In this document: one piece after another, positions 5,519 to 12,753 of the stretch
Numbering within the stretch: the stretch's first letter is position 1
Layout of the letters: every line of letters starts with the position of its first letter
Made by a program: the position numbers and the translations under genes
Assembly (NCBI GenBank): GCA_001275005.1
Contig: JWZX01002444.1
Coordinates: 1-32,572 of the forward strand
Source of the DNA: Chrysochromulina tobinii
Lineage: Eukaryota
Length of the DNA: 32,572 nt
Direction of reading: 5' to 3'
Notes under the pieces: model-generated
Database searches by the model: none
What the model was told of the DNA's origin: nothing
What the model saw: the letters and a program-made list of their open reading frames with translations, nothing else

Positions 5519-7676
5519 TCACTTGTCGACGCCCGTGCCGTTGATGTACGCGAGCAGGGCATCGGCGCACGCGTCCTTCAGATTGCATGCAGGCGCGCGC
5601 GCGTAGCTCTTGCCATGCACACGCCACAGGCGCTCGAAGAGAGACGCGTTCGTCGCCGCGGCCGCCGCGACACCCTCCCAGCTCAGCGGCGACAGGTCGG
5701 CCATCCCAAAGTCTACCGGCAGCTCATATTCGCGCGCGTACAGCGCAGCGCCCGCGGCGTTCGCAGCCGCAATGTCGGCGACGTACGTCGTCGACGCGGT
5801 GGGCGCCCATGACGACGCGTCGAGGGCCCACAGGCGCAGCGCGCTATTGGCCGGTGGGTACGATTCCACAACGGCCGGGACGGAGTGGAGCATGAACAGT
5901 GGCGAGCCGCCGCTGCCGCCCGGCCCGTCTTCGGTGCATGCGCCCGGCACGGCGCTCGCACGGGCCACACACACGGCGGGGCTGGCCGGGTCGGGCGGCA
6001 TGTTGGCGACGCTCGTGCGGAAGCAGCACTGCGCGCCCGTCGTCCCTTCGACCGGGTAGAAAGTGAAGCCGGCACACGACGCCTGGGCGCCACACACGCC
6101 TTCACACAGCGACAGCGTCGCATTCTCATCGAGGGGGGGGGGCGTGAGTGGGCACCACGCGTCGCCGCCCGCGAGCCCCTGTGATGAGGAGGCAATCGGA
6201 GGCAATTAGGGAGGCAATCAGGGGTCATTAGGGAGCTACTCAGGAGCACAATCACATGCAATCAAGGGTCAGTCGGGGGTTGCTCAGGAGCACAATCACC
6301 TCGCCAAACACATCTCCGACGTCGAGGTTGCCGCCGCTGCACCACTTGACAGCGCGAGTGATGCGCCACTGGATGGGCGCAGAGCCATTCGGCGCCGTCG
6401 CGGGCGTACACGAGCGCACGATGGCGGCCTCATCAACATGCACGTGCCCGAAGAAGCCAGCGCGCACCTGCATGCAATGAGTGAGGCCATCAGTGGCAAT
6501 CAGTGGCAATCAGTGGCCATCGAAAGGCCAGCGAGGTGGACGTGTCTGAGGGGCCTGCGCGTACGACGTTTGGGAAGCGCAATCAGAGGGCAATCAGAAC
6601 GCAATCAGAACAGAGCGCAATCAGAACGCAATCAGTGGCAATCAGAGCGTACGACGTTTGGGAAGCGCGTCACGAGCGCCCGGAAACGTGAGAAGAGGCC
6701 AGGTACCCAAGCGCCATGTGGCGGGATGTGGCCGAGTAACACGACTGCGTCGCCCGCGGCGCTCGCCTCCGTGAGCACGCTCTCGAACCACTCGAACTGC
6801 TTCTCACCCGCGATCGAGGCCGCCGACGACGCATTCTTCAGGAGTGGGTTGACGGTCGACCAGTACAAGGTATTGAGGCCAACGACCTTCAGTGGGGAGA
6901 TGAGGGCGCTGTGGTGAGCACTTGCATGCAGAGGGCACGGAGCAGGGTATTGAGGCCAACGACCTTCAGGCCGGGCTCCGGCGAGGTCGCGTAGTAGCCT
7001 CCGGTGCGTAACGTCTCGATCGCCGCCACGTCGGCCGCGAACGTCGCTCCAAAGAGCTCAACGAGTGCGTCGTACAGCCACGCCTGAGTGGGGCCCGCGT
7101 CGACGACGTCATCAATGGTCATCAGAGGTCATCAGAGGTCATCAGAGGTCATCAGCATGCCTGAGCGGGACCTGCGTCGACCACGTCGCCGGGTACGGTG
7201 TCGTGGTTGGCCACGACGCTGAAGACGGCCGCGCTCGGGAATGCCGCCCGCAAGCTGCTCATGCTGCGGTTCACGAGGCTCAGGACCTGCGCTTGCGCCG
7301 GGCTGCTCGAGCTGCACGCCGCTGCTGCGCCAGCCTCGGAAAAGTCCCCTGTGTGAAACACTAAGCGCACGCCAGGCGCTGTGGACGCCATGAACTCGAC
7401 GGCCGCGCTCCAAAGCGCGACGGGCGTCGCACAATTGTCCTGCGGCTCGCCGAACGGCCCTGCGCCGCCCGTCACCCTGGGCACACACGCGGCGGGCATC
7501 CGAGCGCACGCGGCGTGGCTTTCGCAATAGCACCCGGCGCCCAGCGGGATGCCCTCCTCGTAATAAGGGTCTAAGTGCGAGTCCGTGACGTGCCACGCGA
7601 GCACCGGCGCATCCGGCGCGGCCACAGCGAATGCCGCCGCTGCCAAAAGCGTCGCCATCGACAGGTTCTGTTTCAT
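5519..7676 (-). CDS. Secreted acid sphingomyelinase-like (SMPD1/SMPDL3 family) metallophosphoesterase with inserted PAN/Apple-like module, 5 exons, about 565 aa
   Basis: Exons 7161-7676, 6964-7083, 6653-6886, 6300-6467 and 5519-6178. It has a signal peptide and the metallophosphoesterase motifs DSHLD, TGDF, ANHD, GGYY, GLNT, QFEW, GHIPP and GHVH. The C-terminus resembles acid sphingomyelinase (EYELPVDFGMADLSPLSW). Confidence 0.82.
6869..6969. repeat. Perfect 24-nt direct repeat spanning both ends of a 77-nt intron
   Basis: GGTATTGAGGCCAACGACCTTCAG at 6869-6892 and 6946-6969. Confidence 0.97.
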
Positions 7677-7878
7677 GCCTTCAACACTTTCGCTTCGTCA
7701 CTCGACTTCGGACCCGCAAACGCCGACGGCGAAAAGCTGTGAACGAGCTGGAACATGTACGATTGCGTTTGTTTGGATTCGGTTGGACCAGTCTAATGTG
7801 TGACGACTCTTTTTGGAGGAAATTTTCCCACGAACTTTCCCACGCTTCCATTCACGACGACGTGTCGGGCTGGCTCTC
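7677..7878. promoter_or_regulatory. Putative bidirectional promoter region
   Basis: About 200 bp of lower-GC sequence between the divergent start codons of the sphingomyelinase-like and pyruvate kinase genes. Positional evidence only. Confidence 0.4.
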
Positions 7879-9978
7879 ATGCTCCGCCTGCCGGCTCGCC
7901 TCGCGCGCACGCAGCTGTCACGAGCCTCGCGGCAGCTAAGCACGGCCAGCTCCGCGCCGCTCACCAAGCTCGTCTCCACCATTGGTCCTGCCTCCGAGGA
8001 GGCCGAGCCGCTCGCTGGGTGCGTCGCGGCGGGCATGAACGTGATGCGAGTCAACTTCTCGCATGCGACGAAGGACGAGTTCCACCTGCGGCGCACCAAC
8101 CTGCGCGCTGCGCCCGGCGGCGAGTACGTTGCCGTCATGCTCGACACCAAGGGGCCGGAGATCCGCATGGGCGGCCTCAAGGTCTGCAAGGAGACGGGCA
8201 ACCGCAAGGCGAAGATGAAGCTCACCACGGGCCAGACGCTCACCCTGACGAACGACAAGGCGTTCGACGGCGCGGGCGACGAGCGGACGATCTACGTGGA
8301 CTACCCGCGCCTCGCGGAGGTCGTCGAGCCTGGCACCACCGTGCTGCTCGACGACGGGCTCATCTCGCTCGAGGTGGTGAGCGCCGCCGACGGCAAGGTG
8401 ACGACGACGGTGCTCAACAGCAGCGAGATCGGCGAGCGCAAGGGTGTGAACATCCCGGGCGTGGTGACCGGGCTGCCCGCCATGTCCGACAAGGACCTCG
8501 AGGACATCAGCTTCGGCATCGAGCACGACATCGACATGGTCGCCGCTTCGTTTGTTCGCAACGCGGCGGGCGTGCACCAGATTCGCGAGCATATCCTCAA
8601 GTGCCACGAGAAGTACGCGGCGAACGGTGGGATGGACACGCCTCCCCCGATGATCATCTCGAAGATCGAGTCGACCGAGGCTCTCGACAACCTCGCTGAG
8701 ATCATCGAGGCGAGCGATGGCATCATGGTGGCTCGCGGCGACCTCGGGGTCGAGGTACCCCTCGAGAAGGTGACGTCCGACCACAAACATGGAGTTTGAG
8801 TGCTTCGAAGTGCTTCGGATGAGCTCTGATTGCCTCGCCTCATCAGGTCGTGACGTGGCTCTGATTGCCTCGCCTCATCAGGTCGTGACGTGGCAGAAGG
8901 ACATCGTCGCGATGACCTTGGCCGCCGGCAAGCCGGTCGTCGTCGCGACTCAGATGCTCGAGACGATGCAAAAGAACCCGCGCCCTACCCGCGCGGAGGT
9001 AGCCGATGTAACGAATGCGGTGCTCGACGGCGCGGATGCCGTGATGCTCTCGGGCGAGTCGGCCAACGGACTGTACCCGACCGAGTCCGTCGCCATGCAG
9101 GTGATTGCAATTGATTGACGCTGATGCCCACCTTGATTGCCACTTGATGGCCCCCTTGATGACACCTTGATGGCCACCTTGATTGCCACTTGATGGCCCC
9201 CTTGATGACCCCCTTGATGGCCACCTTGATTGCCACTTGATGGCCCCCTTGATGACACCTTGATGGCCACCTTGATTGCCACTTGATGGCCCCCTTGATG
9301 ACACCTTGATGGCCACCTTGATTGCCACTTGATGGCCCCCTTGATGGCCATCTGAGTGCGCACGTGCATTGCATGCAGGCACGCATCGTGGCGGAGGCCG
9401 AGGCTTGGGCGAGTGCCCGTGGGCTCGCCCCAGGAGGCGTCGAGCCTCAGCTCGCGCCCGTATCTCGCTCGATCTCGGCGACCGAGTCGGACTTTGATGA
9501 GGACCAGGAGGAGGAGGAGATGTACCGTCGCGAGCTGACCATTCCGGATAGCATGAGCGCCGCCGCGTGCTTCCTCGCCGCGCGCGTCGGGGCACGTGCG
9601 ATCGTCGTCTTTGAAGACGGATGGGGCGAGACTGCTCGTAACGTCTCCAAGTTTCGTCCGACGGTGCCCATCGCGGCGCTTTGCGACTCTCTCAAGGTGT
9701 GCCGCCAGCTCTCGATCTCGCGTGGCGTCGTGCCGTTACTCGTCGAGCCGCAGCCCGAGATCGCGGGAGATCAGCCCGAGGGCGAAGACGAGTTCCGTAA
9801 CGACATGTTCTCGCTCGACACACTGGATGCCTCCGATGCCTGCTCGCTGGTCGCGGAGCGCACCGGGCTGCTCGAGCCAGGCGACCTCGCGATCGTGCTC
9901 GTCGGGGAGACTATCAGCGTTGAGGTCGTCATGGAGCCGATGGAGTGGGAGGGCGACGAGGCCGAGAGAAAGCCCTGA
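7879..9978 (+). CDS. PYK: Pyruvate kinase with predicted mitochondrial presequence, 3 exons, about 569 aa
   Basis: Exons 7879-8769, 8882-9100 and 9379-9978. Motifs: TKLVSTIGPAS, RVNFSH, LDTKGPEIR, SKIES, IMVARGDLGVE, ATQMLETM, PRPTRAE, DAVMLSGES, SKFRP. Confidence 0.95.
9126..9351. repeat. Intronic minisatellite in pyruvate kinase intron 2
   Basis: About 46-nt unit CCACCTTGATTGCCACTTGATGGCCCCCTTGATGACACCTTGATGG, repeated about 5 times and built from TTGAT-core subunits. Confidence 0.95.
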
Positions 9979-10967: not shown

Positions 10968-12753
10968 TCATCTTAAGATTGAGTACTCCGCCCCCGGCGT
11001 TCTCCCCACCTCCCCCGGCATCAGAGGCGTTGGGCGTACCGGCCCGAAATCGGCAAAGATGGGCGCCCACGCCGTCGAGTCGAAAGGCACATCCTTCATG
11101 ACGCCGTTCGGTCCGAATTCCGCATCGGAAGGCGCCGCCCCGTCCTCGGAAATTGGCGGCAGCCAGGGCGCGGGCAGCTCCTTGCGCAGCAAAGCCGTCC
11201 ATGAGAACCCAACGAACCATGGATCAAGCTGCAGACCGAGACGCGAGGCACGAGCGGCGCTCAGCGACCATCGACCGACAAGGGTTTCGTCAGTGGGGAT
11301 GCCGGTAGATAAATCTCCGAGCTCAGCGGCCATCGAGCGGCACTCTGCGGCCATCAGAGGCCATCAGAGGCCATCAGCGGCCATCAAGAGGCCATCAGCG
11401 GCCATCAGCGGTCATCAGCGGTCATCAGCGGTCATCAGCGGCCATCAGCGGCCATCAGTGGTCATCAGCGGCCATCAGCGGCCATCAGCAGCCATCAAGA
11501 GGCCATCGAGCGGCCATCAGCGCACCTGCAGAGCGAGGAAGCCTTCGGGGCCGCATCCAATCCGTTCAGTCTCTCGCGCGCGTAAAAGTCCTATAAGGAA
11601 AGCACCGGCGGCTCTCGAGAGGTTCTCGGCGGTGCGACTCACCTGAGCGAGGAAGTTCCATATTAGGGAGTCAAGGTGGACCCTAAGTTCCATATTAGGG
11701 AGTCAAGGTGGACCCTAAGTTCCATATTAGGGAGTCAAGGCGGGAGCCGAAATGACAAAGACTCAGGGGGGGAGAGGGAAGCAATCCGCGCCGAGATGAG
11801 GGAAGCAATCCGAGGGCTCGTGGATGAGCTCTGATGAGGGAAGCAATCCGAGGGCTCGTGGATGAGCTCTGATGAGGGAAGCAATCCGAGGGCTCGTGGA
11901 TGAGCTCTACCTGTCGTTGAAGCCGCTCCGCGGCTTCGTGTCCTCCGCGCGTATACTGTTCGATAAGCGCGAAGATATCTTGAGCGGAGCGCCCCTCGAA
12001 GGGGGGGCGCCCGGTGAGCATCTCATGCAGCAGCACCCCCAGCCCCCACCAGTCCGCCGCCGTCGAGCGACCCTTGCCCGAGACGACCTCGGGCGGCGCG
12101 TACTCATCGGTTCCGCATTTGGTAAAGGTGCGTGACTCGGAGACGCACTTGGCAAAGCCGAAGTCGCAGAGCTTGACGTAACCGTCGCCGCCGATGAGCA
12201 CGTTCTCGAGCTTCACGTCTCGGTACACGTACCCACGCGAGTGGATGTGACGAAGCGCGAGCGCCACCGTCGCCGTGTAGAAGCGCGCGTGGTCCTCGCG
12301 CACGCCGGTCGGAAAGAGATCGAGGAGGCCGAAGAGGTCTCCTCCGGACATGAGCTCGAGGCAAAAGTAGAGGGAGGAGTGGTCCTGGAACGTGCCGAAC
12401 AGCCGCGTGATGAATGGGTGTCGGCAGTCCATCAGCGCCTCCTTCTCGGTGAACACACGCATCGCCGACTTGCGCGGCAGCGCGGCCAGCCGGCCCTTGC
12501 GTACCTGCTTGACCGCGTAGCGCAGGCCGCTGTGCGAGTCCTCGGCGAGCCACACGCCCCCCTGCCCGCCTAGCCCTATGGGCCGCCGGAAGCGCATGGT
12601 ATGCAAGCTAAAGTTGCTCTCCTGGTGTTCGTCGGCCGCCTTGAGAATCTCTTCGGTCACGTCGTCGAGATCCTCTATCTTCAGCTGGTCTACGAGCGAA
12701 GCGGCAGCCATGGCATCGGAGAGGTCCTTGCTCGACGACATATTGCGCCGCAT
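10968..12753 (-). CDS. AGC-group Ser/Thr protein kinase (PKA/PKG-like catalytic domain), at least 3 exons
   Basis: Exons 11911-12753, 11526-11642 and 10968-11228. Motifs: GLGGQGGV, YAVK, HPFITRL, YRDVKLEN, DFG, TKCGTDEYAPPE, DWWGLG, and an AGC tail (DPWF..FSW..LLRKELPAPWLPP, FADF). The start and extreme 3' end are uncertain. Confidence 0.88.
11348..11520. repeat. 10-nt tandem repeat in kinase intron 2
   Basis: G(C/T)CATCAGCG-type units in tandem. Confidence 0.95.
11653..11908. repeat. Two tandem arrays in kinase intron 1
   Basis: A 32-nt unit AAGTTCCATATTAGGGAGTCAAGGTGGACCCT (about 3 copies, 11653-11740) and a 38-nt unit GATGAGGGAAGCAATCCGAGGGCTCGTGGATGAGCTCT (3 copies, 11795-11908). Confidence 0.95.

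What the first reader, a model, noticed from the sequence alone, without database searches (positions are those of the whole stretch)
6869..6969. Candidate newborn intron: 77-nt intron bounded by a perfect 24-nt junction-spanning repeat
On the minus strand the sequence reads CTGAAG|GTCGTTGGCCTCAATACC...CTGAAG|GTCGTTGGCCTCAATACC. The repeat offset equals the intron length (6887-6963), so both splice sites come from one duplicated AG|GT. Removal restores GLKVVGLNTLYW, whereas retention gives a stop. Perfect identity implies a recent origin (inference). This intron lacks the TGAT filler.
Basis: partly seen in the sequence, partly recalled or inferred. Interest (0 to 1): 0.8.

Follow-up and report, generated by a model that had tools for sequence, protein, structure and literature searches.

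The report
Young intron missing from sister alleles
A 77-base intron in an algal enzyme gene is absent from three other, 99% identical copies of the same gene, and it likely arose recently when 27 bases of the gene were duplicated around 50 bases likely copied from the end of an existing intron, a pattern that also marks most neighbouring introns.

Summary
The 77-nt GT-AG segment (6963-6887, minus strand) lies in an acid-sphingomyelinase-like gene of a haptophyte alga. Of 5 close metagenome loci, 3 lack exactly these 77 nt while keeping the other introns (0.7-1.05% from the window); 2 match the window. The duplication is really 27 nt with one synonymous C>T. Intronless DNA has C, so it is not an assembly collapse. 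mRNA spliced from the intron allele must have T: that form occurs in 2 of 5 freshwater RNA runs, but cannot be phased to the intron, so splicing is likely, not proven. The 50-nt filler is not unique: about 40 nt match a high-copy intron 3'-end motif. Two more polymorphic duplication-plus-filler insertions lie in the same gene, and 8 of 13 introns in the window hold a copy of 12 nt or more of their own exon flank (0 of 156 control pairs). Best reading: recent intron gain by staggered-break repair with templated filler; main rival: a mobile element. The scan noted a similar intron elsewhere in this genome (e1-2577349).

The parts
6887..6963 (-). Intron 2, 77 nt, GT-AG; present in window, L004, L005; absent in L001, L002, L003
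6943..6969 (-). First copy of the 27-nt duplication (6 nt exon end, GT donor, 21 nt now intronic); has C at 6945 like the intronless alleles
6866..6892 (-). Second copy of the duplication (6 nt intronic ending in the AG acceptor, 21 nt of exon 3); synonymous T at 6868 marks mRNA of this allele
6893..6942 (-). 50-nt filler; about 6892-6931 matches a high-copy sequence that elsewhere ends introns; holds branch-point-like CTCAC and CTCAT words (motif recalled, not tested); no terminal inverted repeat, no stable fold
5519..7676 (-). Host gene: acid-sphingomyelinase-like metallophosphoesterase, 5 exons, 565 codons plus stop when the four introns are removed
6964..7083 (-). Exon 2
6653..6886 (-). 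Exon 3
7084..7160 (-). Intron 1, 77 nt, GC-AG, with an in-register 29-nt junction repeat carrying 4 mismatches around TGATGACC filler; likely an older event of the same kind; its acceptor junction is present in all 4 close loci that cover it
6581..6668 (-). 88-nt insertion at the intron 3 donor: perfect 22-nt duplication plus 66-nt TGATTGC filler; in window and L003, absent in L001 and L002
6468..6652 (-). Intron 3, 185 nt, GT-AG
6179..6299 (-). Intron 4, 121 nt, GT-AG; L001 and L003 carry a further 89 nt at its donor (43-nt duplication with 1 mismatch plus 46-nt filler) that the window lacks; L002 ends inside that insertion

Best explanation
This 77-base GT-AG segment is present in some copies of the gene and exactly absent from others of the same species, and it likely arose recently as an insertion that duplicated 27 bases of exon containing AG|GT around 50 bases likely copied from the 3' end of another intron, giving an intron that is likely spliced out cleanly. 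Shown: presence/absence in DNA, the duplication, frame restoration, the high copy number of the filler, and T-form mRNA in two RNA runs. Inferred: direction (gain), that the T-form mRNA comes from this allele, and the route. The route I commit to is repair of a staggered break (or an equivalent template switch) that fills in the overhangs, so duplicating the target, and patches the gap with sequence templated from the abundant intron repeats. The duplication supplies donor and acceptor, the filler would supply branch point and pyrimidine tract. Such insertions would arise anywhere, and survive where they fall at an existing splice junction (lengthening an intron) or on an exonic AG|GT or AG|GC (making a new one).
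For: Intronless allele in 3 of 5 close loci (L001-L003), which keep other unspliced junctions and are syntenic, so genomic. They read C at the marker site, like the first copy; a deletion inside the 24-nt perfect repeat, an assembly collapse or loss through cDNA would leave T. RNA contigs read T in X13 (depth 39.9, spliced at introns 3 and 4 as well) and X16 (depth 4.4), C in X14, X15, X18. Only the last of 3 AGs in the intron restores the frame, and the spliced protein aligns without a gap here to P0001 and P0002. Filler: DNA run X1 depth 29,003 in bin 6858-6938 against 83-90 in unique bins; other copies join TGAT filler upstream and go on into AG|GT downstream (tables 2, 5, 5c, 7). The three polymorphic insertions of this gene have duplications of 22, 27 and 43 nt and three unrelated fillers; the best matches of the intron 3 and intron 4 fillers include the same intron (18 and 16 nt), as local templating predicts. 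8 of 13 introns hold a 12-nt or longer copy of their own exon flank, 0 of 156 controls. Staggered breaks with 46-nt overhangs give tandem duplications, sometimes with templated inserts, in mouse cells (PMC5730883, passages).
Against: No DNA exists here for the samples with T-form mRNA, so a T-type intronless allele is not excluded; no intron-retaining contig or intron loose end was seen in 4 of 4 RNA runs. X13 differs from the window at 13 exon sites, so its T needs recombination or a mosaic contig. The X16 call rests on one contig under depth 5. L004 and L005 are near-identical to the window (0 and 1 difference) and may be the same source, so the intron allele is seen directly in one strain only. 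L001-L003 are closer to each other (0-0.5%) than to the window (0.7-1.05%), so their number does not fix the direction, and no sister-species outgroup was found. The intron 2 filler has no second copy in the window, so it needs a distant template, which suits a mobile element equally. No break or repair enzyme was tested. 9 of the 13 introns are my own models checked only by open frames.
Confidence: 0.5

Rival explanations
1. The filler is a short non-autonomous mobile element, for example a fragment of intron RNA inserted by a retrotransposon enzyme, and the 27 nt are its long, variable target-site duplication (an introner-like gain).
For: About 40 nt of the filler is high-copy and has no local source; it lies in sense orientation. 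Marine Chrysochromulina MAGs carry introners (827 in one; PMC9860276 supplement), and P. glacialis class 14 takes both splice sites from an AGGH duplication (10.1101/2020.10.14.339549). An earlier scan note (e1-2577349, unchecked) read a 15-nt-flanked intron of this genome this way.
Against: The shared part stops at about 6931; depth falls to 10.8 in the next bin (though X1 has a hole there). The four fillers of this gene are unrelated, have no fixed ends, no poly(A) and, for intron 2, no terminal inverted repeat. Duplication length varies 22-43 nt against 4 or 8 nt in the introner classes read. C. tobinii scored 0 introner families in a survey (PMC12130899 supplement), if the window is that species or close to it.
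Confidence: 0.27
2. The insertion is real and recent but is not spliced, or poorly, so the strain carries a damaged allele; the T-form mRNA comes from an intronless allele that simply has the T variant.
For: No RNA of the intron-bearing strain was available; no retention contig in 4 of 4 runs; X13 shares flanking variants with L001 rather than the window; the acceptor is AAG and two earlier AGs would frameshift.
Against: T was not seen in 3 of 3 intronless genomic contigs. The first copy continues CTG exactly as the C allele does, which an insertion into a T allele would match only by chance or by use of two alleles. The gene is otherwise intact.
Confidence: 0.12
3. The intron is somewhat older and was lost from the L001-L003 lineage by deletion between the repeats, before the C>T change arose in the window's lineage.
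For: Long direct repeats favour precise deletion (general knowledge); L001-L003 form a close group; no outgroup was found.
Against: It needs the loss to precede the T change. C-form molecules occur on at least two backgrounds (T or G at 6839). One mismatch in 27 still makes the intron young, so this changes the direction of the last step only.
Confidence: 0.08
4. One of the two forms is an assembly artefact.
For: Short-read assemblers can collapse or misjoin repeats; DNA run X1 shows no contig over 6932-7131.
Against: A collapse at the perfect repeat gives T, the intronless contigs have C; three separate assemblies agree and share a linked variant at 6839; an X14 contig that runs into intron 3 also lacks intron 2. 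X1 record 7 (6492-6931, 0 differences) joins the filler to exon 3 at normal depth, and L004 and L005 span the whole intron.
Confidence: 0.03

Closest known systems
Neointrons from staggered double-strand-break repair in Daphnia pulex (PMC4202315, passages)
   Same: Presence/absence within a species; a direct repeat of exon sequence at the intron ends; further staggered insertions that lengthen young introns.
   Different: [quoted passage not shown]
[quoted passage not shown]
   Same: Both splice sites come from one duplicated AG|GT and the protein is unchanged; in potato the splicing signals are inherited from an existing intron.
   Different: Only 27 of 77 nt are duplicated exon; 50 nt are foreign to the locus, so it is not a plain tandem duplication.
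Introners: Chrysochromulina sp. family (4-bp TSD, no TIR, carries 5' site; 10.1101/2022.06.06.494994, passages) and Polarella glacialis class 14 (both sites from a 4-nt AGGH TSD; 10.1101/2020.10.14.339549, first quarter of text)
   Same: Insertion with target duplication that supplies splice sites; related genus; repeated sequence inside the intron.
   Different: Long and variable duplications; intron ends are host exon sequence, so similarity to other introns cannot reach the ends; fillers differ between events.
Tandem duplications with templated inserts from cNHEJ or polymerase-theta repair of paired nicks (PMC5730883, passages)
   Same: Duplication of tens of bases, sometimes with a templated insert between the copies.
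   Different: Shown in mouse cells with Cas9 nickases; inserts there are templated in cis, while the intron 2 filler needs a distant template; not tested in haptophytes.

Membership tests
Spliceosomal (U2-type) intron | GT..AG ends whose removal restores the reading frame | tested here: met
   gap-free alignment to homologues at the junction
Spliceosomal (U2-type) intron | Removed from mRNA of the allele that carries it | tested here: inconclusive
   T-form mRNA in 2 of 5 RNA runs, not phased to intron-bearing DNA
Spliceosomal (U2-type) intron | Functional branch point | not testable with these tools
   branch-point-like words are in the filler (recalled consensus); no lariat data
Recently gained (polymorphic) intron | Precise absence from conspecific genomic alleles | tested here: met
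   3 of 5 close loci lack exactly 77 nt and keep other introns
Recently gained (polymorphic) intron | Absence in a close outgroup, fixing gain against loss | tested here: inconclusive
   only distant, intron-poor genomic homologues (L006, 40% identity to P0001; L008, 28%) lack it; the C/T marker favours gain
Staggered-break neointron (Daphnia type) | Direct repeat of adjacent exon sequence at the intron ends | tested here: met
   27 nt, 1 mismatch; longer than the 4-12 bp reported
Staggered-break neointron (Daphnia type) | Origin by break repair | not testable with these tools
   inferred from the footprint only, as in the Daphnia paper
Tandem genomic duplication intron | Both splice sites from a duplicated AGGT | tested here: met
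Tandem genomic duplication intron | Whole intron is a copy of adjacent sequence | tested here: not met
   50 of 77 nt have no local source
Introner | Family of 4 or more introns similar up to both ends (within 10 intronic bases) | tested here: inconclusive
   no genome held; shared part is about 6892-6931 only and the first 21 nt are host exon
Introner | Terminal inverted repeats (optional in the family) | tested here: not met
   only a 6-nt internal palindrome; fold z-score 0.51
Introner | Short target duplication of fixed length | tested here: not met
   22, 27 and 43 nt in one gene
Acid sphingomyelinase-like phosphodiesterase (host gene) | ASMase_C and Metallophos domains | tested here: met
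   PF19272 at 23.9 bits, cut-off 23.7, on the last exon, 1 of 6 pieces scanned; nearest homologue P0001 carries PF00149 and PF19272; activity untested

The most novel reading that the evidence does not exclude
This alga runs an ongoing, transposon-free intron-making mutation: 20-45 bases of a gene are duplicated and the gap is patched with copies of existing intron sequence (possibly from intron RNA), so old introns seed ready-to-splice new ones and keep lengthening each other. It would be common enough to mark most introns and to segregate several times within one gene, and genome-wide introner screens would miss it.
Probability: 0.35. Interest if true: 0.85.

Novelty: new variant of a known kind. 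Interest (0 to 1): 0.68.

Why it matters
Where the sequence of new introns comes from is an open question: for most recent gains the source is unknown (PMC4202315, PMC3443670). Here one case has the empty allele, a long duplication that supplies both splice sites, a traceable filler and a built-in SNP that tells spliced mRNA from the empty allele's mRNA. The same gene shows an older event (intron 1) and two intron-lengthening events. A population survey of this alga could measure directly how often such insertions become introns.

Tried and rejected
No whole genome is held, so the filler's source locus and its copy number could not be searched directly. Motif scans: 0 matches in viral contigs; 55 in genome contigs, all in prokaryotic records and none continuing into the rest of the filler, so all 55 were dropped. 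Viral scan with the exon 3 alignment gave 1 weak unrelated locus (L012). No second copy of the filler in the window or in L001-L003. No terminal inverted repeat or stable RNA fold. The X14 'skip' of 77 nt first looked like independent proof of splicing; it is the C form and so comes from an intronless allele, and I rejected it as splicing evidence. Of 21 runs listed I laid 6: X1, X13, X14, X15, X16, X18; no environmental DNA run (X19-X21, share 0.00-0.04) was laid. X1 shows no contig over 6932-7131; the tool warns that a hole proves nothing. Neither homologue search listed a protein of this species (7997 candidates scored each). L007 and L009-L011 were not counted for intron position because they may be transcripts. 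Replitrons were read as a lead (PMC10288648, passages) and dropped: no element ends fit. Look-ups of earlier findings by sequence, by seven words and by relatives gave nothing.

Full report
1. The observation. On the minus strand the 24-mers at 6969-6946 and 6892-6869 are identical and 77 nt apart; keeping the 77 nt gives a frameshift and a stop, removing them an open frame. Of 25 equivalent cuts only 6963-6887 has GT..AG ends, and of the 3 AGs inside the segment only the last restores the frame. A 24-nt repeat is expected about 5e-7 times in the window from base composition.

2. The gene and organism. The segment is intron 2 of a five-exon gene (7676-5519) that gives 565 codons and one terminal stop when its four introns are removed. 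The last exon hits Pfam ASMase_C just at the cut-off (23.9 against 23.7 bits; 1 of 6 pieces scanned had a hit at cut-off). The nearest homologue, P0001, is 62% identical over exon 1 and carries PF00149 and PF19272; named relatives further out are SMPDL3A/B-like phosphodiesterases. Exons 2 and 3 abut without a gap against P0001 and P0002. The neighbouring pyruvate kinase has Haptolina brevifila as closest named relative (77%), so the organism is a haptophyte. Chrysochromulina is my inference from that, from freshwater RNA holders, from GC near 60-65% (C. tobin 63.4% and probably haploid, PMC4580454 passages) and from recalled intron motifs.

3. An intronless allele exists. A metagenome scan with an exon 3 alignment gave 11 loci, 5 of them 100% identical in protein. 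L004 and L005 match the window, intron included (0 and 1 difference over 8240 and 6614 nt) and may be the same source. L001, L002 and L003, from three assemblies, lack exactly the 77 nt. They keep other unspliced junctions, and L001 and L002 run into the neighbouring genes, so they are genomic alleles of the same locus. They are 0.7-1.05% from the window and 0-0.5% from each other.

4. A marker base. The empty alleles read ACC CTG TAC. The intron allele has CTG after the first copy and TTG after the second, so the duplication is 27 nt with one synonymous C>T at 6868, and the filler is 50 nt. Any deletion inside the perfect 24-mer, an assembly collapse, or loss through cDNA would leave T; all 3 empty contigs have C. 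That rules against artefact and favours gain. Loss remains possible only if it preceded the T change. Either way one mismatch in 27 makes the intron young.

5. RNA. Contigs from freshwater RNA runs support introns 1, 3 and 4 (cuts resolved; intron 1 is GC-AG). At intron 2 the marker matters. Laid on L001, X13 (depth 39.9) and X16 (depth 4.4, weak) read T; X15 and X18 read C; X14 reads C by its junction position. So 2 of 5 runs carry the form that splicing of the intron allele must give, and 3 of 5 carry the empty allele's form. Against my reading: no DNA from those samples links T to the intron, no retention contig or intron loose end appeared in 4 of 4 runs, and X13 differs from the window at 13 exon sites. 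Splicing is therefore likely, not shown.

6. The filler. It has no second copy in the window. In DNA run X1 the bin 6858-6938 has depth 29,003 against 83-90 in unique bins; the tool warns that depth is no copy number, but it points to very many copies. Joints and loose ends cluster at 6892-6906 and 6927-6931; other copies are joined to TGAT filler upstream, and an X16 loose end and an X13 joint show AG|GT directly after the motif (tables cut to the best-supported rows). About 40 nt of the filler is thus a common intron 3'-end motif whose own final AG is replaced here by the duplicated exon end. There is no terminal inverted repeat and no stable fold.

7. The pattern is general. Two more polymorphic insertions in this gene have the same build: 88 nt at the intron 3 donor (22-nt perfect duplication, TGATTGC filler; window and L003 have it, L001 and L002 do not) and 89 nt at the intron 4 donor (43-nt duplication, 1 mismatch; L001 and L003 have it, the window does not). 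The first cannot be cleared of assembly collapse by a marker. Their fillers match the same intron for 18 and 16 nt, though the 18-nt match also occurs elsewhere. Intron 1 has a decayed in-register repeat (27+2 nt, 4 mismatches). Across 13 introns of four genes (4 RNA-supported, 9 modelled by me and checked by open frames; a probable fifth intron of the dehydrogenase gene left out), 8 hold an exact copy of 12 nt or more of their own exon flank against 0 of 156 swapped pairs, and 4 have in-register repeats scoring 15 or more against 0 of 156.

8. Mechanism. Shown: duplication, filler of intron origin, presence/absence, frame restoration. Inferred: a staggered break or template switch duplicates the target and patches in templated intron sequence; selection keeps the events that land on splice junctions or on AG|GT or AG|GC. 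Variable duplication lengths and unrelated, partly local fillers favour repair (0.5) over a mobile element (0.27). The distant source of the intron 2 filler keeps the latter alive. An unspliced allele (0.12), loss (0.08) and artefact (0.03) follow.

9. Comparison. It works like the Daphnia staggered-break neointrons (repeats 4-12 bp, source mostly unknown; PMC4202315 passages) and shares AGGT recruitment with tandem-duplication gain (PMC3443670 passages; PMC4974935 abstract), but 50 of 77 nt are foreign. It fails the fixed short duplication of introners (4 or 8 nt; 10.1101/2022.06.06.494994 passages; 10.1101/2020.10.14.339549 part 1 of 4), and family membership could not be tested without the genome. 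Marine Chrysochromulina MAGs have introners (PMC9860276 supplement rows), while C. tobinii scored 0 families (PMC12130899 supplement row; 2 of 14 files not searched; passages). Paired-nick repair gives such duplications in mouse cells (PMC5730883 passages). I also saw the abstract of 10.1101/051292 and passages of PMC10288648; neither changed the reading. Nine library searches listed no paper on nuclear intron polymorphism or junction duplication in freshwater haptophytes; the library lacks most subscription journals, and bioRxiv supplements were not seen. An earlier scan note on this genome (e1-2577349) describes a 66-nt intron with a 15-nt repeat and reads it as a mobile family; I did not check it, and it led me to the dinoflagellate paper.

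10. Verdict. Real, young and polymorphic; a new variant of a known kind of intron gain. Interest 0.68.

Noticed in passing
window 7187-7161 and 7110-7084 (minus): In intron 1 the intron copy differs from the exon copy at 4 sites, 3 of them synonymous third positions, unlike the copy in dehydrogenase intron 3. It could mean that the copy came from another allele.
   Followed up: partly
L001, at window ~6408: In-frame 48-nt tandem duplication in exon 4, absent in window, L002 and L003; real allele or assembly effect not resolved.
   Followed up: no
L002, pyruvate kinase intron 2 (window 9101-9378): L002 has a shorter intron that contains a copy of the acceptor junction and about 22 nt of the next exon; the window lacks it. 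Pyruvate kinase intron 1 also differs by 72 nt.
   Followed up: partly
window 2977-843 (minus): Dehydrogenase-like gene (label recalled from its N-terminal motif) whose introns hold nested copies of their own junctions; a probable fifth intron near 890-861 was not modelled.
   Followed up: partly
window 4391-4300 (minus): Modelled intron of a potassium-channel-like gene (label recalled) ends in a 23-nt copy of the upstream exon end with 2 mismatches; only the AG comes from the duplication.
   Followed up: partly
window 7676-7879: The host gene and pyruvate kinase are transcribed divergently with about 200 nt between the start codons.
   Followed up: no
window ~6150-5960 (minus): The host protein has a cysteine-rich insert with a weak PAN-like match (PF08276, E 0.06, below cut-off), shared with P0001-P0004 and P0007 and absent from L006.
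   Followed up: no
window 10016-10000 and 9956-9940: A 17-nt piece of the pyruvate kinase C-terminal codons is repeated 60 nt downstream, just past the stop codon: the same kind of duplication outside an intron.
   Followed up: no
window 11653-11740 and 11795-11908: Perfect tandem arrays of 32-nt (2.8 copies) and 38-nt (3 copies) units near the end of a kinase-like reading frame on the minus strand.
   Followed up: no
window 24645-29342 (+) and 31263-31981: A 1565-codon open frame with 108-nt internal repeats, and a long acidic low-complexity stretch with 21-nt repeats.
   Followed up: no
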